From IMG/VR virus record IMGVR_UViG_2690316285_000005: a stretch of 10,252 nt of DNA, one strand, 5' to 3'. This stretch comes from a virus. Taxonomy: Duplodnaviria > Heunggongvirae > Uroviricota > Caudoviricetes. The notes under the pieces were generated by a model, which worked only from the letters and a program-made list of their open reading frames with translations, was not told the origin of the DNA and ran no database searches. Of the stretch, positions 1-10,252 are shown in pieces. The position numbers and the translations under genes are program-made. Every line of letters starts with the position of its first letter. Within the stretch, counting starts at the first letter, position 1.

Positions 1-149
1 ACTCGGTGGCCAGTTTTTGTTGACCACTTCACTACGGTTTAGGTTCGAACACTACGGATGTACCTCAGTACTCACCATCAGTACCTACGGGTAACAGCTT
101 CATCAAAGTACCATCATCTCAAGCAGGCAATCCTGCCGGGGCGGATCTG

Positions 150-2129
150 ATGGGAGTAGGGCTTGTAGATGGCACTACTGTAAGTTCTCTTGCGATGACA
201 AAGACGGGTACTCTAAGTATCTATGCAAAGAACGCTACAACCGCCTGGACACGCATATATACCGCTACACAGATGGACGGGCGATACGTACCCCTTACAC
301 GTACCATCAACGGCCATGCACTCACGGCCAATTTAGTACTGAACAGTGAAGATACAGGTTCAGTACCTGATACACGTACTGTGAATGGTAAGCCTCTAAG
401 TGAGGATGTAGTACTTACCAGTACTGATACCGGCTCTGTACCAGATACACGGACAGTTAATGGTCATGTACTCAGTGAAGATATAGTACTGAGTAGTGAA
501 GATACAGGTTCAGTACCTGATACACGTATGGTCAACGGTCATGTACTCAGTGAGGATGTAGTACTTACCAGTACTGATGTTGGCTTAGGGAAGGTTACAG
601 ATGATGCCCAGCTTACGATAGCAGGTAATCTAAGTGATCTGGGGGACGTGGAAGAAGCACGTATTAACCTTGCTGTTTACTCAATGGATGAAGTAGATGC
701 AGAGGTAACGGCTTTAGCTGACAGTATTACTTCCCTTGATTCCGCTTCCATGAAGAAAGCGAGTAACCTTTCTGATCTATCCAGTCTCTCTACAGCACGT
801 ACTAACCTACAGGTGAACCGTTTGACTCAGGGTGCTACGTACACCGATCTGATGAGTAATGACCTGACTAACCGTATCCGAATTCAGGATAACGGGGCAT
901 GGGGTGCAAGTACTGGTACTGGATGGATTGCTTTAGGTATAGGTCAGGGGGGGACAGGGGCTACAGATGCTTTGAGTGCTCGCCTAAACTTTCAGGTGGA
1001 TCGCTTTAATCAAGGTAGTAATTTAACAACTATTAAATCCGCTGATTCTTCCGCTGCATTAGTGGTTTATGATGGAGGGCAATGGGGTTCAGCTACATAT
1101 ATTGCGGGTGCTTTCACTGGCTGGAAAGCATTAGCAATTCCGCAGGGCGGTACTGGTGTTAAGACTCAGGCTGAGTTATGGCCTGCGATTCGTCCTACGG
1201 GTGCAACTTCTTTAGCAGGAGATCCTGTCTCTGATTCTGACGCGACTACCAAACGCTGGGTTGAAAACTTGCTGAGTAGTCGTACTTCAGTTAGTCCTCA
1301 ATGGGATGTTATTGCTTCTTCCCCTTCCTCTACGGCAATTGGTAGTTATGTAACTGGAGGGCGTATTCGTTCGATATGCAACATTGGTACATCAACTGAA
1401 ATATCTGGTGGTTTTCGGGTTGGTAAAACGATGGGACAGACTGGACAGGCTGATCTCACCCTTTTTATTTCTGAAAATGGTGCAGAGGATAAACTATGGG
1501 GGCTAAAAGGGCCGACTGGAACGATCCTAACTGATGTTCAATCAGGATGGATGACTAATACCGCTGTTTCGGGACCGACAGATGCCAATACCATCACCTT
1601 TAACGGTATGTATGCAGGGCCAGGTGACTCAGGTATTAACTATAGTGAAAAATATTCCCCTTTATTGCACATGCAAAGATACCCAGGGGCAAATCGCTCT
1701 CAGCTTCAGATAGACGGTGGTGGTACTTTAAGAGTACGAGGCGGGAACGGTACAACATGGTTTGGATGGTTAGTAATGCAAGCTCAAGGTACATCAGGTC
1801 GTGAGTTTAAAAGAGACATAACTCCAGCAAATCCAGTTGAAGCATTAGATCGGATAATGTCACAAGATTTAGTAACGTTTATCTACAAGGATGATGAACA
1901 AGAAAGGGTTAGGTTTGGTGTTATCGCCGAAGATGCTGAGTTGACTGCTCCGCAGTACATTAAGCATGATGAAGAAACAGTTGAAATAGAAGGGGAGATT
2001 GTCACTCGTGATCATCCACGTGTTGATTTAAATCCAATAGTGATGGACTTGATGGGAGCTATTCAAGCCCAACAAGAAGAAATTAATCAGCTAAAAGATT
2101 TAGTACAACAGCTATTAAATAATAAATAA
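150..2129 (+). CDS. Phage fiber protein (tail or neck/collar fiber) with tandem fiber repeats and a C-terminal intramolecular chaperone (peptidase S74-like) domain
   Basis: 659-codon ORF. Residues ~51-146 are four 25-aa repeats (consensus approx. RTVNGxxLSEDVVLTSxDTGSVPDT) typical of phage fiber repeats. The C-terminal ~110 aa (SGREFKRDITPANPVEALDRIMSQDLVTFIYKDD...GVIAEDAELTAP...) matches, from memory, the endosialidase/T5 pb1-type chaperone domain with its S-x4-K spacing. The ATG at 150 has only a weak SD, and the frame is open upstream to 24 with no start codon, so the true start is uncertain. Confidence 0.7.
   Translation: MGVGLVDGTTVSSLAMTKTGTLSIYAKNATTAWTRIYTATQMDGRYVPLTRTINGHALTANLVLNSEDTGSVPDTRTVNGKPLSEDVVLTSTDTGSVPDTRTVNGHVLSEDIVLSSEDTGSVPDTRMVNGHVLSEDVVLTSTDVGLGKVTDDAQLTIAGNLSDLGDVEEARINLAVYSMDEVDAEVTALADSITSLDSASMKKASNLSDLSSLSTARTNLQVNRLTQGATYTDLMSNDLTNRIRIQDNGAWGASTGTGWIALGIGQGGTGATDALSARLNFQVDRFNQGSNLTTIKSADSSAALVVYDGGQWGSATYIAGAFTGWKALAIPQGGTGVKTQAELWPAIRPTGATSLAGDPVSDSDATTKRWVENLLSSRTSVSPQWDVIASSPSSTAIGSYVTGGRIRSICNIGTSTEISGGFRVGKTMGQTGQADLTLFISENGAEDKLWGLKGPTGTILTDVQSGWMTNTAVSGPTDANTITFNGMYAGPGDSGINYSEKYSPLLHMQRYPGANRSQLQIDGGGTLRVRGGNGTTWFGWLVMQAQGTSGREFKRDITPANPVEALDRIMSQDLVTFIYKDDEQERVRFGVIAEDAELTAPQYIKHDEETVEIEGEIVTRDHPRVDLNPIVMDLMGAIQAQQEEINQLKDLVQQLLNNK
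300..587 (+). repeat. In-frame tandem repeat, 75-nt units (25 aa), about 4 copies, arranged as a 150-nt A-B super-unit duplicated
   Basis: Exact 34-nt identity between 345-378 and 495-528 (agtgaagatacaggttcagtacctgatacacgta) and exact 30-nt identity between 399-428 and 549-578 (agtgaggatgtagtacttaccagtactgat), both at a 150-nt offset. The protein repeats are in register. Confidence 0.85.
1794..2126 (+). other. Putative autoproteolytic intramolecular chaperone domain of the fiber protein (candidate catalytic Ser at codon 1794-1796, Lys at 1809-1811)
   Basis: The motif T-S-G-R-E-F-K followed by DITPANPVEALDRI...LVTFIYKDD...FGVIAEDAELTAPQYI resembles the S-D-x-R-L-K ... ALDKL ... GFIAQEVEEV pattern of peptidase S74 chaperone domains, recalled from memory. 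A coiled-coil-like tail (QAQQEEINQLKDLVQQLL) follows. Confidence 0.5.
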
Positions 2130-2137
2130 ATATAAAC

Positions 2138-2166
2138 GGGGTGAACGGATTCACTCCAATAAAATT
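2138..2166 (+). terminator. Possible weak intrinsic terminator or regulatory hairpin between the fiber gene and the major tail gene
   Basis: Imperfect hairpin GGGGTGAA-cgga-TTCACTCC (core stem gtgaa/ttcac, extendable with a G-U pair plus two G-C pairs), followed by an A/T-rich stretch aataaaattttctt. The T-tract is interrupted, so this is weak. Confidence 0.3.
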
Positions 2167-2187
2167 TTCTTATAAGGATATAAAACT

Positions 2188-2661
2188 ATGGCTATGGATA
2201 TTTTTTCCGGTGCTAACCTTACTGTAGAAGTAGGTTCAAGTGCTGGTAAAACAGTTGCTACTGACTTTGTAGAAGTACCAGAGGTAAACACCTTCAGTAC
2301 TTCAGGCTTTGAAAGTACTGTAATTAGCGTAAAAACATTCAATAATGCTTATGATCGTAAGCTATTGGGTACTAAGTCAATCCCGGACATTTCTCTTGCA
2401 GTTAACTACTTACCAGATAATGCAGTACATCAGAATTTAGAACAACTTGCAGACGATCAGAAACGTTGTCAGGTAAAACTAAGCTATTTTACCGATGCAA
2501 CTAAAAAAGAAGGTTTCTTTGTAATTTATACCTGCTTTGTTTCAAGTACCACTATCGGTGGTGATAAAGATGAAGTAGTAACTAAGACTTTCACCCTTGC
2601 AGTTGATGGTGAAGCAATTGATTCAGGTCTGATTACTCCAAAACCAGAATCGGGCGAATAA
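2188..2661 (+). CDS. Probable major tail (tube) protein
   Basis: 157-aa ORF with an AAGGA RBS about 9 nt upstream of the ATG. It sits immediately upstream of the chaperone pair and tape measure gene (conserved siphovirus synteny) and is followed by a strong terminator, consistent with a highly expressed structural gene. Acidic, Thr/Ser/Val-rich composition. The call rests on synteny and size; no motif was recognised. Confidence 0.6.
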   Translation: MAMDIFSGANLTVEVGSSAGKTVATDFVEVPEVNTFSTSGFESTVISVKTFNNAYDRKLLGTKSIPDISLAVNYLPDNAVHQNLEQLADDQKRCQVKLSYFTDATKKEGFFVIYTCFVSSTTIGGDKDEVVTKTFTLAVDGEAIDSGLITPKPESGE

Positions 2662-2669
2662 TAATAAAT

Positions 2670-2699
2670 AAAGGGAAGGTGCTCAACTTTCCCTTTTTT
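2670..2699 (+). terminator. Rho-independent terminator downstream of the major tail protein gene
   Basis: Stem AAAGGGAA (2670-2677) pairs with TTCCCTTT (2689-2696) around an 11-nt loop, followed by a T-run (ttttta), 9 nt after the stop codon. A partial terminator after the major tail gene is a common arrangement in siphoviruses. Confidence 0.6.
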
Positions 2700-2712
2700 A
2701 TTGGAGATGAAA

Positions 2713-3012
2713 ATGAATTTAAACGAATTGAAGAAAAAACTACAACCAGAATTAAAACCACATGAAGTAATGGGTGAAATCATCTTTATTCATCGTCCAA
2801 ATGGTCAGGATTTCCAGAAATGCACTGATGTGGCTAAAACTCTAATCCTATGTGTAAAAGATGAAAATGGTGATCCTATCTTCGCAGAAGAAGATATTGA
2901 TGGACGAATTAATGTTAACTCTATTGATTTTGTAATCCAGAATGAAATTTACTCAGCAATTATTGCTTTAATCAATACTGCGAAACCTGTAGATGAAGTA
3001 GAAAAAAAGTAA
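2713..3012 (+). CDS. Tail assembly chaperone (lambda G-like), the zero-frame product
   Basis: Small acidic ORF directly upstream of the tape measure gene. GGAG at 2703-2706 is 6 nt upstream of the ATG at 2713, which I prefer over the TTG at 2701 or the ATG at 2707. It ends at TAA 3010-3012 immediately after the slippery heptamer. Confidence 0.75.
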   Translation: MNLNELKKKLQPELKPHEVMGEIIFIHRPNGQDFQKCTDVAKTLILCVKDENGDPIFAEEDIDGRINVNSIDFVIQNEIYSAIIALINTAKPVDEVEKK

Positions 3013-3407
3013 GAGGTGATATCGAATTAAAGTACTTTTGTAAGATGGTTAACAAAAGAGGCTTATCACCTGAAGAATACTTTAGTTTAGATCCTGATGT
3101 ACTCAATATGCTTATGATCTACGATACTTTTATAGAACCATCCGGTACGCAGATTGAAATGATGAAACATGCGTACCAGTGTTACTACACCACTATCAGT
3201 AATGGCAACCTAACACCAGAAGCAAGGAAAAGTATCAAGGTACAGGATTTTGATTTTCTTGATGTGCTTAGTGATAGTACTAAGAGTACTTCAGAGAAAG
3301 CTGAAGAAAGAAAATTAAAAACTAAAGAGGCTCAATCCAATGATATTAAATCTATAGGGGAGTTAATTAAATCTCAGGTATTAGGAAAGAAAAAGAATGG
3401 CAAATAA
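2713..3407 (+). CDS. Tail assembly chaperone frameshift fusion (lambda GT-like), produced by a -1 shift at 3003-3009
   Basis: The upstream frame (start 2713, residue 1 mod 3) and the downstream ORF (3045-3407, residue 0 mod 3) are related by a -1 shift. The predicted junction reads ...VDEVEKK / VRGDIELKYFCKMVNKRGLSPEEY..., giving a product of about 231 aa. Its end overlaps the tape measure start (3397) by 11 nt. Confidence 0.65.
3003..3009 (+). promoter_or_regulatory. Slippery heptamer A_AAA_AAG for -1 programmed ribosomal frameshifting
   Basis: In the chaperone frame the codons are gaa-aaa-aag-taa. The heptamer A AAA AAG (3003-3009) is the classic dnaX-type shift site. The -1 frame is open from 2997 (a stop lies at 2994-2996) through 3407, and the downstream ORF has no SD before its first ATG at 3045. 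Confidence 0.7.
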
Positions 3408-5610
3408 TAATAGAATACGTGTAGATATTACGGGTGATTCTTCCGGTTTACAGCGTGCTTTAAGGTCTGGTACTGAATCATTAGAGGAATTTGGTAGTAC
3501 TGCTGGTGGCATTGTTGAAGAGTTCACAGGCCGAATAACTGGTATGGCTGGCGGGTTCGGTACTGCTATGACCGGGATCGCGGGTGCTGCGGCTATTGGT
3601 ATTGGTGGCCTGGCAGCATTAGTAGAATCATCACGTGAATATGTGCGTGAAATGAACCAGATCAGTAAGAGTACCGGATTGTCCGTGGTTCAGTTACAAC
3701 AGCTATCAGCGGCGTTTAGTGGCCTCGGTCTTGAGATTGATAAGTTTGGTGATTTCAACAAGGATACCTTGGATAAGCTCGGTGATGCTTTTCGTGCTGG
3801 CGGTGGTGTATCCGATGATCTTAAAGAATATGGACTCAACCTACAGGACTATAACAAGTACTTAAAACAGGCTGATGGTGGTATGCAGGCTGTGATCCAC
3901 ACCTTTTACGCCATGCGTGATGCAGGTAAATCACAGAGTGAAATAGTTAACGTAATGGAAACGTTAGCCAGTGACTCAAGCCACATGATTAGTACTCTTC
4001 AGCAGTTCAATAATGAGGCTCAAGCTACAGCCTATATCCAGTCACAAAATGCTGAAGTAACTAATGATGCTGCTGAAAAATATGCTGAATTCGATAAAAA
4101 CCTTGGGAAACTTACTACCAGCATTAAAGGTACTATTGCTGATGGCCTATCACCTTTAGTTAATGCCATGAACAGTGTCTATGATGCTGCAAATCAAAAA
4201 CCTCACGAGGCAGGTTTGTTTGAAGATCTGAATGAACGTATTAAAACTTCCAAGGGTTCTCTACAGGATATGTTGGATATCTGGGAAAAATTACGTACAG
4301 CAGGGGCATTAAACTACCAGGGTGCAGCACTCAATACTGGCATCATGGATGATAAGGGCAACAAGGGTAATGAGTTCGCTCAGGCTAAGGCACGTTTAGA
4401 AGAACTGGCAAACAACCTAAAGTCCGATGTTGCGGTTGCTACCGCTCCTACTGGCGGATGGGTTGATCAGGCAAAAGAAGCTGAAGATGCAGCGAAGAAG
4501 TTAGAACAACAACGTAAACAGGCAGAAGCGGCACAAAAGGCGGCAGATGCAAAACGCCTACAGGCTCAACGTAATCTGGAAGCTGCTCTTGCTCAAGTTG
4601 GGGAAGATGGTTTTCAGGTACGTCTACAGCAGTTCGACAGACAACAAAAGGCACTTCTTAAAACCATCACCGATAGTGCTCAAGTACTCGGTATCAATCC
4701 TGATGAAATGCTAAAGAACGCTACTGCATATGGTGCTAAACAACGTACTGATTTACTGAATTCAATGGTTGGTTATCAAGATCCTAATCAGGGTCTGAAA
4801 GATACCAATGCTCTTATTGGTTCCGGTCTACTCAATGACAATCAGAAGGGGTATCTGGCACAGCAACAGAATCAGCGTATCAATGGTGGTAATCCATTAG
4901 CCTATAACGATACCGATCAGAAGTTGAAAGATAACGCTGATGCTATGAATGCTGAACTTCAGCAGAATGAGTTGTTGCTGAAAGGCCATGAGGACTATGA
5001 GAAACGTAAAGCTGAGATCACGGCAAAGTACAATGCACAGGCCATCCAAATCAGTAACCAGAATGCACAGGATCAGTTAAGTATCTTCTCAAGTACTGCA
5101 CAGTCACTATCACAGGGCATGGTTGATGCGTTTGGGGAAAGTAGTGGGGCTGCACAAGCTGCATTTACCCTAAGTAAGAGCATAAGCATTGCACAGACAG
5201 TACTTTCAATTCAGTCAGCATTGGCCCAAGCACTCGCTACCCCTTGGCCAGCTTCATTGGCAAACTATGCACAAGTACTTTCACTTGGTATGTCGATTAT
5301 TAGTACTGCAAAGGGTGCTGCTGCTGGTCAGTTCCATGGCGGGGTAGATGAACTACCAGCAAGTTATGACAACAAATCATTTGTACTTAAGCAGGGCGAG
5401 AGAGTGGTGCAGCCTGAAGCGAATAAGAAATTAACAGCATTCTTGGATAAACAAGAAGGTGGAAGTACTTCAGGTGATATTACCGTTAACGCACCATTGA
5501 TCATCCAGGGTGATGTAGCTGATGATGACAAGAAATTTAATGAGATGCTTAAGAAACACGCCAATAGTGTTTCTCAAGCTGTGAGAAGTAGTCAAAAACG
5601 TAATACATAA
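3397..5610 (+). CDS. Tail tape measure protein
   Basis: 737-aa ORF immediately after the G/GT chaperone pair. It has a Gly/Ala-rich hydrophobic segment near the N-terminus (GMAGGFGTAMTGIAGAAAIGIGGLAAL), long Ala/Gln/Lys-rich, probably coiled-coil, stretches (EQQRKQAEAAQKAADAKRLQAQRNLEAALAQ) and a hydrophobic C-terminal region. This is the typical tape measure architecture. Confidence 0.85.
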   Translation: MANNNRIRVDITGDSSGLQRALRSGTESLEEFGSTAGGIVEEFTGRITGMAGGFGTAMTGIAGAAAIGIGGLAALVESSREYVREMNQISKSTGLSVVQLQQLSAAFSGLGLEIDKFGDFNKDTLDKLGDAFRAGGGVSDDLKEYGLNLQDYNKYLKQADGGMQAVIHTFYAMRDAGKSQSEIVNVMETLASDSSHMISTLQQFNNEAQATAYIQSQNAEVTNDAAEKYAEFDKNLGKLTTSIKGTIADGLSPLVNAMNSVYDAANQKPHEAGLFEDLNERIKTSKGSLQDMLDIWEKLRTAGALNYQGAALNTGIMDDKGNKGNEFAQAKARLEELANNLKSDVAVATAPTGGWVDQAKEAEDAAKKLEQQRKQAEAAQKAADAKRLQAQRNLEAALAQVGEDGFQVRLQQFDRQQKALLKTITDSAQVLGINPDEMLKNATAYGAKQRTDLLNSMVGYQDPNQGLKDTNALIGSGLLNDNQKGYLAQQQNQRINGGNPLAYNDTDQKLKDNADAMNAELQQNELLLKGHEDYEKRKAEITAKYNAQAIQISNQNAQDQLSIFSSTAQSLSQGMVDAFGESSGAAQAAFTLSKSISIAQTVLSIQSALAQALATPWPASLANYAQVLSLGMSIISTAKGAAAGQFHGGVDELPASYDNKSFVLKQGERVVQPEANKKLTAFLDKQEGGSTSGDITVNAPLIIQGDVADDDKKFNEMLKKHANSVSQAVRSSQKRNT

Positions 5611-5620
5611 GAAAGCCCAG

Positions 5621-6193
5621 TTAGGGATTTTCCGTGTGATAAGACAAATATTGTGAAAGAGAAGATGAAAGGGTATAGAGATTGTAATACTCTTCCCGCA
5701 ATAATTTAACTTTAGGTGGTGAGTATTTAATATTGTATGCAAGCTGTGTTGAAAGAGTACGTAATCTCGATAATGAATAATAACTCTTTACGATGGCATC
5801 TACTTCTTTTTTTGGGAGTGATGCTAATTTTTCTAATTGGGAATAATATACATCATCATGCAAATAAGAAACGGCAGTTGCTACTCTTTTAATAGCTTCT
5901 GTATCTTCAGTTGGAAGAGGAATACATATTTCATATGTGCCTAACACCTGAGACTCATCGCCACCAGTAGCAAGAGCTAAAAGGTTATTGTTGATTTCGC
6001 TCAATAAGATTACACGCATCTTAAAAACATCATCTGAACTTTCTTTCCATTTATCATATGCGTTATAGCCTATTTGGCCTGCAAATAACAACATAGCAAC
6101 GATGACGGATGCAGCCTGCCAATCAAGCCTGTTAAAAAAAATACGAATCGAGGTTTTTAAATAAATAAAGAAAGAAGATATTCGAGGTAACAA
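5621..6193 (-). CDS. Hypothetical protein, probably membrane-anchored; moron-like accessory gene encoded antisense to the tail operon
   Basis: The only long ORF on either strand in the 584-bp gap between the tape measure stop (5610) and the next tail gene (6195), and it fills the gap exactly. Read from the TTG at 6193 (an AGGA lies about 8 nt upstream on the minus strand) it gives 190 aa with a hydrophobic segment WQAASVIVAMLLFAGQIGYNAY near residues 25-46. The region is visibly more AT-rich than the flanking genes. The start codon is uncertain: the first in-frame ATG corresponds to 6094-6092 but would cut the hydrophobic segment. No known domain was recognised. Confidence 0.5.
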   Translation of the reverse strand: MLPRISSFFIYLKTSIRIFFNRLDWQAASVIVAMLLFAGQIGYNAYDKWKESSDDVFKMRVILLSEINNNLLALATGGDESQVLGTYEICIPLPTEDTEAIKRVATAVSYLHDDVYYSQLEKLASLPKKEVDAIVKSYYSLSRLRTLSTQLAYNIKYSPPKVKLLREEYYNLYTLSSSLSQYLSYHTENP

Positions 6194-6194
6194 A

Positions 6195-6752
6195 ATGGCA
6201 TCCTTTTCAAATCAAATAAAAGTAACGAACTTTCAAATTAAAAGTACTGAACCGATCTATTCTAATCAAACATGGACAGGTCAACGTATCATGAGAAGTA
6301 CTGGAATTCAATACTATCAAATTCAGTTCACCCTTAATTTTAATCCTGCATCACTAAATGAAGTGAATAGCTTTTTAGCTCAATATGCACAGGGCAAACC
6401 TTTCACTATGTCATTGGGGCTTGCAGGTACATATTACGGTAAACAGACTGGTGCAGTAACCGCTACTGCTCTCACTAAACCGGGTAATATGGTTGTACCT
6501 ATCAGTACTAACACATTAGCTGTGGGTGAGTGGGTACAGTTTTCCAATCACAATAAGCTATATCGAATCGTAGAACGTACCAGTACTTCAATTACTATTT
6601 TCCCTGCTCTACAAAATACAGTACAGGCAAGTGAAGCACTCAAATATAACAATCTCATGATCGAGGCTGTATTAGATCCAGACAATGATTATTCATTGCC
6701 TATTGGGAACATCATGAATATTACATTGAAAGCAACGGAGAATATCATCTAA
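6195..6752 (+). CDS. Minor tail protein, distal tail (lambda gpM-like) candidate
   Basis: 185-aa ORF, first gene after the tape measure gene in the + direction, with a GAGGT RBS 6 nt upstream of the ATG. The segment YYQIQFTLNFNPASLNEVNSFLAQYAQGKPF resembles the lambda gpM family pattern (..YSVTLS...LESFLEEHGG.KSF..) as I recall it. The stop overlaps the next start (TAATG). Confidence 0.5.
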   Translation: MASFSNQIKVTNFQIKSTEPIYSNQTWTGQRIMRSTGIQYYQIQFTLNFNPASLNEVNSFLAQYAQGKPFTMSLGLAGTYYGKQTGAVTATALTKPGNMVVPISTNTLAVGEWVQFSNHNKLYRIVERTSTSITIFPALQNTVQASEALKYNNLMIEAVLDPDNDYSLPIGNIMNITLKATENII

Positions 6753-7375
6753 TGGACTCAGGTATATATACTAATGCTAATCTTCTTAAGTACTGGAAGT
6801 TAGTCAGAGGTACAACCAAGACAAGATTAACACTAATGGAAATTATGAGCTTAGGCGTTAATGTTACTTGTTTTGATGTACTACCAAAAGGTACTAATGG
6901 TTTTCACTGGACGGATTCACTAATTGATATAGATCTGGATGGTTATAAGTACATAAGTTTCCCCGACATTATCAGTGGTTCATTACCTTCATATTCTGAA
7001 CAAAAGGGCATGTCTAATGATGCTATCAATTTTAAAATTAGCAATGTAAACGCCTCGGTTCGTGCTCTTGCCCTTGGTGGTTTCTTGAAAGATGCACAGA
7101 TGAATATCAAGTTAGTAATTCTCAATCCATATGATAGTACTGTAATTGATTCAATGCTCATGTTTACGGGGTTTATTGACTATGTACAGGCAGTAACTGA
7201 TCCAAATCAGAAGCAAAACGAAATGACTATATATGTGAATTCTGTCTATAAGAAATTAGACAGACAACCTGCATTAATTGCCGCCAACTCAGTATATCAA
7301 TCTTACTATAGAAATGATGAGTACTTTAGTCTGTTAGGTCAAGTTAATCAAAATCAGAACTGGAAATACAAGTAA
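6752..7375 (+). CDS. Minor tail protein (lambda gpL-like) candidate
   Basis: 207-aa ORF, translationally coupled on both sides through overlapping TAATG stop/start sequences at 6750-6754 and 7373-7377. The position matches lambda L. There is a loose resemblance to gpL in the region GYKYISFPDIISGSLPSYSEQKGMSNDAINFKISNVN. It lacks a Cys cluster. Confidence 0.5.
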   Translation: MDSGIYTNANLLKYWKLVRGTTKTRLTLMEIMSLGVNVTCFDVLPKGTNGFHWTDSLIDIDLDGYKYISFPDIISGSLPSYSEQKGMSNDAINFKISNVNASVRALALGGFLKDAQMNIKLVILNPYDSTVIDSMLMFTGFIDYVQAVTDPNQKQNEMTIYVNSVYKKLDRQPALIAANSVYQSYYRNDEYFSLLGQVNQNQNWKYK

Positions 7376-7779
7376 TGAAAAATCTACATAATGAAGTAAT
7401 GAGTATTATTCAGTACTCAATTGATAACCCATATAAGTATGGTGATAACGATTGCAACATTATAGTACTACGCCTTATTGATTTAATTAATGGTACTACA
7501 CAGTTAACTAATCGCCAGTATTCGAGCATTAAAGAAGGTATAGCAGGTTTAAACAAGGAAGGATGGAACCATACAGGGGAAATTGTTGAAGCGTACTGTA
7601 AGCCAGTACAAGCCACTATAGACGGTGATATCTGGTTAGATCCTGACAACCCATTAATTATGGCAGTAGTGGCATCTGGTCGGGTACTTGGAGTAAATGC
7701 TGATCATGATGGTTTCGAACTTCAACCAAAACCAACAGAGGGAACATATTACAGAGTAAGGAAACAGAGAGATGGGTAA
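7375..7779 (+). CDS. Tail protein with a putative NlpC/P60 (C40 peptidase) fold, resembling the C-terminal half of lambda gpK
   Basis: 134-aa ORF with the motif YKYGDNDCNIIVLRL (candidate catalytic Cys) and downstream GDIWL...VVASGRVLGVNADHDG (candidate His), resembling the gpK NlpC/P60 half (G.TDC...GDVLL...H). No JAMM/MPN motif was found. It overlaps the next gene by 8 nt. Confidence 0.5.
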   Translation: MKNLHNEVMSIIQYSIDNPYKYGDNDCNIIVLRLIDLINGTTQLTNRQYSSIKEGIAGLNKEGWNHTGEIVEAYCKPVQATIDGDIWLDPDNPLIMAVVASGRVLGVNADHDGFELQPKPTEGTYYRVRKQRDG

Positions 7780-10228
7780 GAGTTTAGGGGGCTTTTTTGG
7801 AGCCATAATTACGGCAGTTGTCGTCGCGGCTGCTGTGTACTTTTCAGGAGGTACAGCATTAGCAGCAATAGGTTGGGGTGCAGCAGCCGGATCTTTGTCA
7901 TTAGTTGCAAGTTCTATGTTAGGTCAAATCGGGGTTTCTGGATACGGTGATGTAGCAGACTCACTAAGTAGAAGTACTTCACCAACTACTGGATTACCCG
8001 TTATATACGGTGGAGAACTACCACATAAAAATGGTGTATCAGGCGGTTCCTTCATCCTAACCGGAAGCATAGTAGCCTGGTACAACGTACCAAATTCTGA
8101 TTCTCAGTACTTATTCTCAGAACAGGCTGTAGCATATGCTGGTGTAGAAAAGCATATCGAGCAAATCTATATTGATAATGAGCCAGTACTTGCAGTACCG
8201 ATTACAGCAGAGGGTGTAGTACCTAAAGAAAGTATTGCAGCGAAGTACCAGAACTATTTGCAATTAGAAGTACGATTTGGTGGTGACTATACGAGTACTA
8301 AAACTCTTGCTGCAAAATATGCTGGTTCGAAATGGACAAATAAATTTCTTGGTAAGGGTATTGTTAGTATCAGTACCGTTATCTTAAAAACTCAAGATTC
8401 ATTAGAAAATAATATTCTTGTTAATGATCAATTCGCTTTAACTGTAGAAATGAAAGGGCAGGTGATTTATGATTTTGTTGATGGTACTTATAAAGCAAGT
8501 AGTAACCCTCCTTCAATTATCTATGATTACTTAACAAATTCAATCTATGGTATGGGTATTGATCCATCATTGATTAATACCGATACGTTTGCAGAAACCG
8601 CAGCATATTGTGATGCTTTTGAATATTATGCTAATGGTGCTATCAGTTATCAAAAAACCTATAAAGATAATATTGAAAATATCTGTCAGTCATTTGGCGG
8701 CATCATGTATGTACATGCCGGACAAATCTGTATTACCACAGACCGCAAATCGGTATCCGTAGCCTCATTTGATGAGCGTAACATGGTAGGGGCGGTACAG
8801 GTTTCTACTTCTGGCGGTACTGACTACTTCAACGTAGTCGATTGCAAGTTTACTAACCCTGAATCGATGTACACCACTGACGTAGTACGTATCCCTTCCG
8901 ATATCACTACGGATGAAGCAGTACAGCATGATGGACAGGTCATAGCATTATCACGCGATTACTCATGGTCATATGATCAAGAGGTGATTGCAAAAATGGC
9001 TAACGTTGATGTACTCAAGGCTAAGTATGCCCTGCGTACTATCAGCTTCACCACAAGTGAAGGTTGGGATCTCGAAGTATGGGATGCGATCAATGTCAGC
9101 AATGAAGAACTCGCTATCTCAGGCAAATTTAAAGTACTCAATAAAGATATCAGCACCGATCAAGAGAACGTTGGCTATGTAACCATCACGGCAGTAGAAG
9201 CACCTGATGCAATGTATGATGGTATTGATCCGGGTATCTGGTCGCCTGGTGGGGTAATTAACTTCCCTGAACTACAGGTACTACCGCCAACGAACCTACA
9301 GGCAGTACGTAAGGGGAATACTACTTCTGGTTCAATCGTGGATCTTACCTGGGATGCTTCACCAGATCCGTATCTGCGTGGGTACTATGTTTACTACCGT
9401 CTTAACGGTTCCAGTACCTGGACGTATGCGGGGCAGACTGGCGTACAGAAGCTTGATTATGAATTATTTGGATTGTCTGATACTGCAAGCTACGACTTTT
9501 CGGTAGAGGCTTACAACAACTTAGGGCTGGTATCCAAGAAGCTTTCCCTAACTGGCATTGTTCCAACATTCAACTTTGCACTACCTGCGGTAACGCGTGT
9601 AGTACTGACAAATAAAACAGAATCAGCGTATGTAACTGACTCACCAGATTTCAATATTGCCTGGGATTCACAAAAAGATATCAGAGTGAATAACCGATCA
9701 TTTAGTGAGTACTTCAAGTATTACGTTATTAAAATCTATGACGGTACTAAATTAGTAGATACATTCTATACGCAAAGTAATGCCTTTAATTTCACTCTTG
9801 AAATGAACCGTCTGAAAGTACGTAAGCCTACCATTGGTATTATCGCACAGGGATTTAATGATGGTACATATTCAGAGGAAGTGAAAATAACCGTAGAGAA
9901 TAAACAGTGTGGTTTAGTAGAGGATGTTAGCTTTACGGGTGGTTTTGGTAATTTGTTTGCTTCATGGACTAAATCTACTGAACGTGATTATGCAGGTGCG
10001 ATTATCAGTATTGTTAATGGTACTAATACACGTATATTCACCAGTTATGCACCTGAATTTGATTCAATACCAAACATCACTGATGGTGAGTATAAGGTTA
10101 AGATGGGATTCTTTGATGTGTTTGGTACTGATGATATTCAATATTGTCCAGAACAAACAATCAGTATCAACTCCAAGTACCAGTTTACCGAAGATGATGC
10201 AGAGGCAATTAACGGGATTCTGAGGTAG
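7772..10228 (+). CDS. Central tail fiber / host specificity protein (lambda gpJ-like) with an N-terminal domain resembling the C-terminal part of lambda gpI
   Basis: 818-aa ORF. N-terminus GGFFGAIITAVVVAAAVYFSGGTALAAIGWGAAAG...LPVIYGGE resembles the Gly/Ala-rich hydrophobic C-terminal region of lambda tail assembly protein I. Segment SNPPSIIYDYLTNSIYGMGID...AAYCD (about 8500-8640) matches the conserved gpJ-family motif (NNMAWCLWDMLTHPRYGMG...QYCD). A fibronectin type III-like module (LTWDASPDPYLRGYYVYYRLNGSSTWTYAG...YDFSVEAYNNLGL) lies at about 9296-9550. Confidence 0.8.
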   Translation: MGKSLGGFFGAIITAVVVAAAVYFSGGTALAAIGWGAAAGSLSLVASSMLGQIGVSGYGDVADSLSRSTSPTTGLPVIYGGELPHKNGVSGGSFILTGSIVAWYNVPNSDSQYLFSEQAVAYAGVEKHIEQIYIDNEPVLAVPITAEGVVPKESIAAKYQNYLQLEVRFGGDYTSTKTLAAKYAGSKWTNKFLGKGIVSISTVILKTQDSLENNILVNDQFALTVEMKGQVIYDFVDGTYKASSNPPSIIYDYLTNSIYGMGIDPSLINTDTFAETAAYCDAFEYYANGAISYQKTYKDNIENICQSFGGIMYVHAGQICITTDRKSVSVASFDERNMVGAVQVSTSGGTDYFNVVDCKFTNPESMYTTDVVRIPSDITTDEAVQHDGQVIALSRDYSWSYDQEVIAKMANVDVLKAKYALRTISFTTSEGWDLEVWDAINVSNEELAISGKFKVLNKDISTDQENVGYVTITAVEAPDAMYDGIDPGIWSPGGVINFPELQVLPPTNLQAVRKGNTTSGSIVDLTWDASPDPYLRGYYVYYRLNGSSTWTYAGQTGVQKLDYELFGLSDTASYDFSVEAYNNLGLVSKKLSLTGIVPTFNFALPAVTRVVLTNKTESAYVTDSPDFNIAWDSQKDIRVNNRSFSEYFKYYVIKIYDGTKLVDTFYTQSNAFNFTLEMNRLKVRKPTIGIIAQGFNDGTYSEEVKITVENKQCGLVEDVSFTGGFGNLFASWTKSTERDYAGAIISIVNGTNTRIFTSYAPEFDSIPNITDGEYKVKMGFFDVFGTDDIQYCPEQTISINSKYQFTEDDAEAINGILR

Positions 10229-10252
10229 CCTGAGTTTAACGGACACTCCTTC

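What the first reader, a model, noticed from the sequence alone, without database searches (positions are those of the whole stretch)
300..587. Recent in-frame tandem duplication in the fiber gene: a 150-nt A-B unit repeated with 30-34-nt exact identities
The fiber ORF contains four 25-aa repeats in which units 1 and 3, and units 2 and 4, share exact nucleotide stretches (345-378 with 495-528; 399-428 with 549-578). This points to a recent duplication of a 150-nt block rather than ancient diverged repeats. Such repeats are substrates for slipped-strand or homologous recombination and can vary fiber shaft length between isolates.
Basis: seen in the sequence. Interest (0 to 1): 0.4.

Follow-up and report, generated by a model that had tools for sequence, protein, structure and literature searches.

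The report
One-repeat deletion in prophage fibre gene
A Shigella sonnei prophage tail-fibre gene carries four 25-amino-acid shaft repeats because it recently lost one of the five repeats found in almost all other S. sonnei, an ordinary repeat-slippage event in a prophage already broken by insertion sequences.

Summary
Window 288-587 holds four in-frame 75-nt (25-aa) units. Bases 345-378 equal 495-528 (34 nt) and 399-428 equal 549-578 (30 nt). This is far beyond what the shared protein sequence would give.

The window is a whole contig of a Shigella sonnei draft genome. All 15 other S. sonnei copies I fetched, including complete genome 53G, carry five units. The window equals 53G base for base except that unit 4 is missing. 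In the 5-unit allele that unit is flanked by two perfect 37-nt direct repeats, and one copy remains at window 484-520.

The missing unit has 9 private differences from its nearest neighbour, so the 4-unit allele is derived. The event was a 75-nt contraction, not a 150-nt duplication. The A-B-A-B look is largely its by-product: in the parent the 34-nt match sits 225 nt apart.

Copy number varies: 5 and 4 within S. sonnei, 3 in a close relative, 1-5 across the family. Units in this clade are unusually similar in DNA.

In this genome the fibre gene is already cut by an IS element. An assembly collapse cannot be fully excluded. Ordinary biology; low interest.

The parts
288..587 (+). Array of four in-frame 75-nt (25-aa) repeat units: 288-362, 363-437, 438-512, 513-587.
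   Evidence: The four units are identical to units 1, 2, 3 and 5 of the 5-unit S. sonnei allele.
345..378 (+). First copy of the 34-nt exact repeat (end of unit 1 plus start of unit 2). Its partner is 495-528.
   Evidence: In the 5-unit parent the two copies lie 225 nt apart.
495..528 (+). Second copy of the 34-nt exact repeat (end of unit 3 plus start of unit 4).
399..428 (+). First copy of the 30-nt exact repeat (tail of unit 2). Its partner is 549-578.
   Evidence: The same stretch is also present in unit 2 of the 3-unit relative L007.
549..578 (+). Second copy of the 30-nt exact repeat (tail of unit 4).
484..520 (+). Deletion junction. This is the single surviving copy of the 37-nt sequence TAGTACTGAGTAGTGAAGATACAGGTTCAGTACCTGA. 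In the 5-unit allele it occurs twice, 75 nt apart, flanking the unit that is missing here.
   Evidence: Removing any 75-nt block that starts within this 38-position interval of the 53G array gives the window array exactly.
32..2129 (+). 3' part (codons ~161 to stop) of the tail-fibre gene. The longest remaining ORF starts at ATG 150 (659 aa). The Peptidase_S74 intramolecular-chaperone domain is at about 1797-1943.
   Evidence: It has 0 mismatches to the 3' part of the intact 858-aa gene in L009.
1..31 (.). End of an IS3-family insertion sequence (annotated IS911 / ISEc52-like in E. coli RefSeq) that cuts off the first ~160 codons of the fibre gene. It is also the contig end.
   Evidence: The same end is found at another IS insertion in L003.
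2188..2661 (+). Major tail tube protein gene. It is a paralogue of the N-terminal domain of the intact fibre protein.
   Evidence: Pfam Phage_tail_3, 34 bits. 31% identity, E 2e-20, to residues 3-139 of the intact fibre.
10222..10252 (.). End of a second insertion sequence that interrupts the J-like central fibre gene. It is the other contig end.

Best explanation
**What the array is.** The region is a modular shaft segment of a siphovirus prophage side-fibre gene in Shigella sonnei. Each 25-aa unit (consensus VPxxRT[VI]NGxxLSxD[VI]VL[TS]SxDTGS) is one repeat of a probably beta-structured trimeric fibre. The family carries 1 to 5 such units at this position.

**What happened in this allele.** The window's 4-unit allele arose from the standard S. 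sonnei 5-unit allele by precise, in-frame loss of one 75-nt unit. The loss occurred between two perfect 37-nt direct repeats lying 75 nt apart. The likely mechanism is replication slippage or RecA-independent misalignment, or unequal homologous exchange.

**Why it looks like A-B-A-B.** The deletion removed the fourth unit of an A-B-A'-A''-B' array. The identical patches themselves predate the deletion. They come from earlier unit duplication and/or gene conversion within this phage clade.

**Consequence.** The fibre is 25 residues shorter (858 vs 883 aa) where the gene is intact. In this particular genome there is no functional effect, because an IS element has since cut the gene.

**Shown and inferred.**
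- Shown: the sequence relationships, the polarity and the copy-number variation.
- Inferred: the molecular mechanism of the deletion, the structural role of the unit, and that the allele is real rather than an assembly product.
For: **The 5-unit allele is the norm in S. sonnei.**
- All 15 other S. sonnei loci fetched carry an identical 5-unit, 375-nt array: L001-L006, L010-L012, L018-L021 and the two IMG/VR contigs L025 and L026. They include complete genome 53G (HE616528).
- The exact 883-aa proteins P0122 and P0123 are on 131 and 101 contigs.

**The window is that allele minus one unit.**
- Deleting one 75-nt block from the 53G array gives the window array exactly. The ambiguity interval is a 37-nt perfect direct repeat.
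- Outside the indel the window is identical to 53G at every base compared (31-520, 601-8284, 8280-10221). This makes the event very recent.

**Polarity.** The missing unit S4 differs from S3 at 9 of 75 nt and from S5 at 19 of 75 nt. It therefore cannot be a fresh copy of any unit in the 4-unit allele, while the remaining 300 nt show no change.

**The 4-unit allele recurs.** It is also in L009 as an intact 858-aa gene (P0130, 2 contigs) with no IS insertions. L009 is 100% identical to window 32-10221. The window's own 659-aa product is on 2 contigs.

**Family-wide copy number.** Among 103 non-sonnei homologues, 73 have 1 tandem unit, 22 have 2, 6 have 3 and 2 have 5.

**Structure.** An AlphaFold2 monomer model gives periodic short strands (EE--EE----EEE per 25 residues) across the array, at low confidence (pLDDT 40-62).
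Against: **Assembly collapse is possible.**
- All four assemblies with the 4-unit allele carry CS*/CX*-style accessions like many of the 5-unit assemblies, which suggests one batch of draft genomes.
- The window contig carries about 31 nt of IS at each end. This suggests a de Bruijn k of about 31, shorter than the 37-nt repeat. A loop-skipping collapse of a true 5-unit array would give exactly this sequence.
- I could not inspect reads.
- The 4-unit junction was not found in IMG/VR or JGI metagenome contigs.

**Partial answers to the collapse concern.**
- L009's contig carries 41 nt of IS2 at its end, implying k of about 41. That exceeds the 39 nt needed to span both discriminating bases.
- The window contig threads correctly through its own 34-nt internal repeat.
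- Many assemblies with the same accession style yield 5 units.

**Limits on the other inferences.**
- The deeper history of the identical patches is unresolved.
- The fold of the unit is not established. There is no Pfam, NCBIfam or PDB match for the array.
Confidence: 0.8

Rival explanations
1. One reading: the 4-unit array was created by a recent tandem duplication of a 150-nt two-unit (A-B) block.
For: - Identity at offset 150 is higher than at offset 75 in the window (79% vs 68%).
- The 34-nt match spans a unit boundary, as expected if a junction was copied in one piece.
- Unit 3 looks like the head of the relative's unit 3 joined to the tail of unit 1. Unit 4 looks like the relative's unit 2. 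Both fit an older recombination with a two-unit offset.
Against: - The window allele is the 5-unit allele minus one unit, with all else identical. The proximate event is therefore a 75-nt loss.
- The two 150-nt halves differ at 33 of 150 positions. The differences cluster in blocks (for example 9 of 20 nt at 379-398 vs 529-548), which is not the pattern of a recent clean duplication.
- The parent 5-unit array shows no 150-nt periodicity.
Confidence: 0.07
2. The 4-unit array is an assembly artefact. The isolate really has five units, and a short-k de Bruijn assembler skipped the loop formed by the 37-nt repeat.
For: - About 31 nt of IS sequence lie at both contig ends, which suggests k of about 31, below 37.
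- Only 4 contigs carry the 4-unit allele, against several hundred with 5 units.
- The predicted artefact sequence is identical to what is seen.
Against: - L009 comes from an assembly whose contig end holds 41 nt of IS2, so k is about 41. That is longer than the 39 nt that separate the two discriminating bases.
- Two different IS configurations carry the same 4-unit array.
- The window contig passes correctly through a 34-nt internal repeat of similar size.
- Many assemblies with the same accession style give 5 units.
Confidence: 0.12
3. The 4-unit allele is ancestral in S. sonnei, and the 5-unit allele arose from it by insertion or duplication of a unit.
For: Tandem duplication between the same 37-nt region is mechanistically as easy as deletion. 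A perfect 165-nt tandem duplication did occur elsewhere in this gene in another S. sonnei lineage.
Against: - A new duplicate would be identical to its template. Unit 4 has 9 differences from unit 3 and 19 from unit 5, while the other 300 nt of the array and about 10 kb of flank show none.
- The 5-unit allele is the one found in every other S. sonnei locus fetched, including complete genome 53G.
Confidence: 0.02
4. The nucleotide identity is only a by-product of identical amino-acid sequence and codon preference, with no shared DNA history.
For: The matching stretches encode identical peptides (SEDTGSVPDTR and SEDVVLTSTD).
Against: - None of 20,000 protein-constrained codon resamplings reached a 34-nt run or two runs of 30 nt.
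- Other copies of the same peptide in the array use different codons, for example GGC TCT GTA CCA ... CGG at the unit 2/3 junction.
- Relatives with equally conserved peptides show runs of only 5-9 nt.
Confidence: 0.01

Closest known systems
Deletion or duplication between short tandem direct repeats by replication slippage or unequal recombination in E. coli (work of Lovett and colleagues on RecA-independent misalignment; recalled from memory, not read here)
   Same: The parent allele has two perfect 37-nt direct repeats 75 nt apart. The product has lost exactly one period and keeps one repeat copy. This is the classic signature.
   Different: The mechanism was not tested here. RecA dependence is unknown. 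At 37 nt the repeat is also just long enough for homologous recombination.
Duplications of a small domain in the phage T4 gp37 tail-fibre adhesin that change host range (Tetart et al. 1996; recalled from memory)
   Same: In-frame gain or loss of short modules in a phage fibre gene through recombination between repeated motifs.
   Different: - In T4 the module lies in the receptor-binding tip and the duplications were selected for host range.
- Here the module is in the proximal shaft, the event is a loss, the element is a prophage, and no phenotype is known.
Adenovirus fibre shaft pseudo-repeats (15 residues; repeat number sets shaft length; recalled from memory)
   Same: The number of short beta-rich repeats varies between related viruses and would set fibre length.
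   Different: The motif and the virus are unrelated. The fold of the 25-aa unit here is unknown (AF2 pLDDT 40-62).
T5-like lateral tail fibres (T5 pb1; DT57C LtfA/LtfB; PDB 8hqz; PMC10713586)
   Same: - The C-terminal Peptidase_S74 intramolecular chaperone matches at E 7e-32 over residues 767-878.
- A conserved mid-fibre motif (RP.G.T.LAGDPV.D.DA.TKRWVEN) is shared.
- The fibre gene lies upstream of the tube gene.
   Different: - The 25-aa array does not align to the DT57C chain.
- DT57C LtfA is anchored by an N-terminal lasso in an LtfC collar (PMC10713586). Intact alleles of this gene instead start with a tail-tube-protein-like domain.
Phage lambda tube protein gpV (tube domain plus C-terminal Ig-like domain)
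   Same: - The N-terminal ~150 residues of the intact protein have the tube fold (Foldseek E about 1e-7 to lambda, YDC107, NF5 and 80alpha tube proteins).
- Full-length gpV aligns over 254-272 columns, which includes the second beta domain.
   Different: - A fibre of about 640 residues with an S74 chaperone follows the gpV-like part.
- A separate ordinary tube gene lies next door.
- This N-terminal part is absent from the window, because the IS element removed it.

Membership tests
Tail fibres/spikes with a C-terminal Peptidase_S74 intramolecular chaperone | Pfam PF13884 match above the gathering score | tested here: met
   34.5 bits against a cutoff of 22, residues 550-598 of the 659-aa ORF. 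The PDB match to the DT57C fibre C-terminus has E 7e-32.
Tail fibres/spikes with a C-terminal Peptidase_S74 intramolecular chaperone | Conserved Ser ... Lys pair at the autocleavage site | tested here: met
   In the 49-sequence alignment, K778 is invariant and S773 is at least 90% conserved (P0001 numbering; window sequence GTSGREFKRD). Cleavage itself is not testable here.
Repeat contraction between direct repeats (slippage or unequal exchange) | The parent allele has perfect direct repeats flanking the lost segment, and the product keeps one copy | tested here: met
   There are 37-nt perfect repeats 75 nt apart in 53G. One copy remains at window 484-520.
Repeat contraction between direct repeats (slippage or unequal exchange) | The flanks are otherwise identical to the parent, and the lost segment is not derivable from the product | tested here: met
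   There are 0 differences outside the indel. Unit 4 has 9 private differences from unit 3.
Repeat contraction between direct repeats (slippage or unequal exchange) | The allele is verified in reads or by PCR, so it is not an assembly collapse | not testable with these tools
   There is only indirect support. Four contigs carry the allele in two IS configurations, and L009's inferred k of about 41 exceeds the 39 nt needed.
   The halves are 78% identical, with clustered differences. The immediate parent has one more unit, not two fewer.
Curated tail-fibre repeat families (Pfam, e.g. Phage_fiber_2; NCBIfam) | A profile match to the 25-aa units | tested here: not met
   No repeat family matched at E <= 1 in Pfam, and none in NCBIfam. 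There were only sub-threshold GldM_2nd / PorM matches (22.4 bits against a cutoff of 24.4; PDB E 0.013).
Diversity-generating retroelement target (variable repeat) | A nearby reverse transcriptase, and template/variable copies that differ at adenines only | tested here: not met
   Nine of the ten large ORFs scanned match tail-module PHROG families and one (3045-3407) matches none; no reverse transcriptase was found. Differences between units involve all four bases.

The most novel reading that the evidence does not exclude
The array could be the length-adjusting module of a so far undescribed way of mounting side fibres on a siphovirus tail. In this reading a tail-tube-protein paralogue carries the fibre on its own C-terminus, so fibre-bearing subunits are built into or onto the tube. 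Frequent gain and loss of 25-aa units would then tune fibre reach to the host's surface layer. The S. sonnei 5-to-4 change would be a snapshot of that tuning, not neutral decay.
Probability: 0.12. Interest if true: 0.5.

Novelty: new member of a known kind. Interest (0 to 1): 0.2.

Why it matters
The finding is a clean, fully documented natural example of repeat-mediated length change in a phage fibre. Parent and product alleles are identical over about 10 kb except for one 75-nt unit, and the 37-nt repeats responsible are identified.

It has three practical consequences:
- The fibre-gene array is a possible length marker within the very clonal S. sonnei population.
- Arrays like this are places where short-read assemblies can mislead, so the 4-unit allele needs read-level confirmation.
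- The apparent structure of a repeat array in a single genome (here A-B-A-B) can be the by-product of a deletion and not the trace of a duplication.

It does not change understanding of phage biology. In this genome the gene is already inactivated by an IS element.

Tried and rejected
- **Megablast of the fibre gene and of the whole window against 50,697 phage genomes.** There was no near match apart from a 44-nt piece at the IS end.
- **Megablast against 5,426 complete E. coli genomes.** Only the IS end matched, so no further alleles came from there.
- **Genome-contig scan with an N-terminal alignment.** It returned only 5 loci, because the collection holds one genome per species.
- **Pfam, NCBIfam and PDB sequence searches for the repeat unit.** No family or solved structure was found. 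The PorM/GldM hits are sub-threshold and I treat them as chance.
- **Rfam on the window.** Nothing was found.
- **Exact search for the 4-unit junction in IMG/VR and JGI metagenomes.** There were no hits. The unit-4-specific sequence gave two IMG/VR contigs, both with 5 units.
- **AlphaFold2 monomer of the 872-aa protein.** It is confident only for the tube-like N-terminus, the second beta domain and the S74 end. The array is low-confidence, so no fold claim is made.
- **Literature searches** for repeat-number variation in this fibre type and for tube-protein/fibre fusions found nothing specific. One search call failed on term length.
- **Reconstructing the full duplication history from the 5-unit and 3-unit alleles.** Several multi-step scenarios fit, so none is asserted.
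- **Ideas considered and rejected.** Codon or protein constraint as the cause of the identity. A DGR target. The 4-unit allele as ancestral.
Full report
**1. What is at the coordinates**

Window 288-587 consists of four head-to-tail 75-nt units in the reading frame of the long + strand ORF (ATG 150 to stop 2129; the frame is open from base 24).

The units encode:
- VPLTRTINGHALTANLVLNSEDTGS
- VPDTRTVNGKPLSEDVVLTSTDTGS
- VPDTRTVNGHVLSEDIVLSSEDTGS
- VPDTRMVNGHVLSEDVVLTSTDVGL

Tandem Repeats Finder calls a period of 75. The repeat finder gives 68% identity at a 75-nt offset and 79% at 150 nt.

The matches are not a side effect of the repeated peptide. In 20,000 resamplings of synonymous codons for the same protein, the longest offset-150 run averaged 10.9 nt and never reached 30 nt twice or 34 nt once. 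29 of 37 same-residue codon pairs are identical against 14.6 expected.

Nothing else is encoded there. No ORF of 50 aa or more lies on the minus strand, and there is no Rfam family in the window.

**2. What the gene and the window are**

The ORF is a tail-fibre gene.
- It has a C-terminal Peptidase_S74 intramolecular chaperone.
- It matches PHROG tail-fibre families.
- Its closest solved relative is the DT57C lateral fibre chain 8hqz, at the C-terminus and one mid-fibre motif.

Downstream lie the tube protein, chaperone, tape measure, distal tail protein and a J-like central fibre gene. This is a siphovirus tail module.

The window is the whole contig CXDI01000144.1 of Shigella sonnei assembly GCA_001250495.1. 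Bases 1-31 are the end of an IS3-family element. Bases 10222-10252 are the end of another IS.

Comparison with intact alleles shows that the first IS removed about 160 codons from the 5' end of the fibre gene.

**3. The decisive comparison**

A protein search found the same gene in hundreds of S. sonnei assemblies.
- The standard product is 883 aa (P0122 on 131 contigs, P0123 on 101). It is present in complete genome 53G.
- It carries five units. The extra unit, VPDTRTVNGHVLSENVVLSSEDTGS, lies between the window's units 3 and 4.
- At the DNA level, all 15 other S. sonnei loci I fetched have an identical 375-nt, 5-unit array.

Deleting one 75-nt block from that array reproduces the window's array exactly. 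The position of the deletion is ambiguous over a 37-nt stretch, TAGTACTGAGTAGTGAAGATACAGGTTCAGTACCTGA. That stretch occurs twice, 75 nt apart, in the 5-unit allele and once in the window, at 484-520.

Everywhere else the window is identical to 53G, apart from lineage-specific IS insertions.

*Polarity.* The missing unit differs from unit 3 at 9 of 75 positions and from unit 5 at 19. It cannot be a new copy of anything in the 4-unit allele. The 4-unit allele is therefore the derived one.

The event was a one-unit, in-frame contraction between 37-nt direct repeats. This is the textbook signature of slippage or unequal exchange. The mechanism itself is inferred, not tested.

**4. Is the 4-unit allele real?**

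*For.* It is present in four contigs.
- Two carry the IS-truncated 659-aa product.
- Two carry an intact 858-aa gene (P0130) in a prophage without either IS (L009). L009 is 100% identical to window 32-10221.

*Caveat.* The window contig has about 31 nt of IS at each end, which suggests a de Bruijn k of about 31. That is shorter than the 37-nt repeat. A loop-skip in assembling a true 5-unit array would give the same sequence.

*Against the artefact.*
- L009's contig begins with 41 nt of IS2, so k is about 41. That is longer than the 39 nt separating the two discriminating bases.
- The window contig runs correctly through its own 34-nt internal repeat.
- Many assemblies with the same accession style give five units.

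I put the artefact at about 12%. Only the reads can settle it. The junction was not found in IMG/VR or JGI metagenomes.

**5.

In the 5-unit parent the arrangement is A-B-A'-A''-B'.
- The 34-nt match lies 225 nt apart.
- The longest exact repeat is the 37-mer, at offset 75.
- Offsets 75, 150 and 225 are equally similar (75, 74 and 78%).

The two-unit periodicity seen in the window is thus largely a by-product of losing A''. A recent 150-nt duplication is not what made this allele.

The two 150-nt halves of the window also differ at 33 positions, and the differences cluster in blocks. That is a mosaic, not a clean young duplication.

The more general ideas stand.
- Units in this clade share DNA far more than in relatives. 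L023, L013, L015, L028 and L030 have 2-3 units that are 51-57% identical, with exact runs of 5-9 nt. L022 has 5 units at 66%. S. sonnei is at 74-78%, with runs up to 37 nt.
- A 94%-identical relative (L007) has three units. Its unit 2 equals the head of sonnei unit 2 joined to the body of sonnei unit 5, and its unit 3 shares its head with sonnei unit 3. Units have therefore been exchanged or copied in pieces.
- An old recombination with a two-unit offset followed by further single-unit events fits the data. So do patchy gene conversions. I cannot tell them apart.

Across 103 non-sonnei homologues the tandem count is 1 (73 proteins), 2 (22), 3 (6) or 5 (2).

**6. How it most likely works**

The unit is a structural module of the fibre shaft.
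- Every array starts right after a conserved WTRIYTATQ...Y motif.
- It ends in ...DVGLGxVT(D/N)DAQL, followed by NLSDL...AR.NL motifs.
- Similar units recur singly further down many homologues and in fibres of Vibrio, Aeromonas, Erwinia and Microbacterium phages.
- The AlphaFold2 monomer gives three short strands per unit, but at pLDDT 40-62. The fold is an inference.

Losing a unit shortens the fibre by 25 residues without disturbing the frame, the anchor or the receptor-binding end.

In the window's genome this has no consequence, because the gene is IS-disrupted. S. sonnei is known for ongoing IS expansion (PMC7373316).

The remaining 34-nt and 30-nt repeats are substrates for a further 150-nt loss.

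**7. Comparison with what is known, and novelty**

Repeat-mediated gain and loss of modules in phage fibres, and repeat number setting fibre length, are established themes. Examples are the T4 gp37 duplications and the adenovirus shaft repeats (both recalled from memory).

The gene is a member of the S74-chaperone fibre class (tests met). The 25-aa unit matches no curated repeat family (tests not met).

This is a new, well-resolved instance of a known kind of event. Interest is low (0.2).

**8. Seen in passing**

The more unusual feature is outside the window. Intact alleles begin with a paralogue of the neighbouring tail tube protein (31% identity, E 2e-20). The model is confident there, and the tube proteins of lambda, YDC107, NF5 and 80alpha are the best structural matches. 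A second beta domain follows, and then the fibre.

More than a hundred Enterobacteriaceae prophages share this layout.

I found no description of it in four literature searches, but that is not proof of novelty.

Noticed in passing
Not in the window (removed by the IS at 1-31). Intact alleles: L009 6133-8709 and L011 10001-12652. The paralogous tube gene is at window 2188-2661.: The intact fibre protein starts with a ~150-residue paralogue of the adjacent tail tube protein (31% identity, E 2e-20). Its AF2 fold matches the lambda gpV, YDC107, NF5 and 80alpha tube proteins. A second beta domain follows, and then the fibre. In effect it is a tube protein that carries a ~640-residue fibre with an S74 chaperone. 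More than 100 Enterobacteriaceae prophage homologues share this N-terminus, and I found no description of it in the papers searched.
   Followed up: partly
window 1-31: This is the end of an IS3-family insertion sequence (annotated IS911 / ISEc52-like in E. coli RefSeq). It truncates the fibre gene after about codon 160. The IS-free 4-unit allele in L009 suggests that the 75-nt deletion came first and the IS insertion later.
   Followed up: yes
window 10222-10252: This is the end of a second IS, which interrupts the J-like central fibre gene (818-aa ORF here, 1100 aa in L009). Both contig ends stop about 31 nt into an IS, which hints that the draft was assembled with k of about 31.
   Followed up: partly
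L002 7270-7602 (also L003-L006); equivalent to window ~747-914: Another S. sonnei lineage carries a perfect 165-nt in-frame tandem duplication in the same fibre gene, with 3 nt of microhomology at the ends. It also has a TGG-to-stop change that splits the gene into 622-aa and 286-aa ORFs (P0003, on 15 contigs). This is a truly recent tandem duplication, unlike the one proposed for 300-587.
   Followed up: partly
L002 10503-11671, L011 18810-20139, L010 ~18658-19907, against window 3803-3805, 8280-8284 and ~8133-8135: Different S. sonnei genomes have IS insertions at different sites in this prophage: in the tape measure gene, and at two sites in the J-like gene. Each has short target duplications. 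The prophage is therefore decaying independently in different lineages. In the window the tape measure gene (3397-5610) is intact.
   Followed up: partly
window 5621-6193, minus strand: A 190-aa ORF is encoded on the opposite strand, between the tape measure gene and the distal tail protein gene. It matches only an unknown-function PHROG (phrog_3829, E 1e-5) and is conserved in all related loci. It may be a moron or cargo gene inside the tail module.
   Followed up: no
window 588-1010: Downstream of the array the fibre has three loosely repeated segments built on the motif NLSDL...AR.NL(Q/A)V (GNLSDLGDVEEARINLAV, SNLSDLSSLSTARTNLQV, ATDALSARLNFQV). The same motif is widespread in phage fibres of Erwinia, Salmonella and Vibrio phages.
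   Followed up: no
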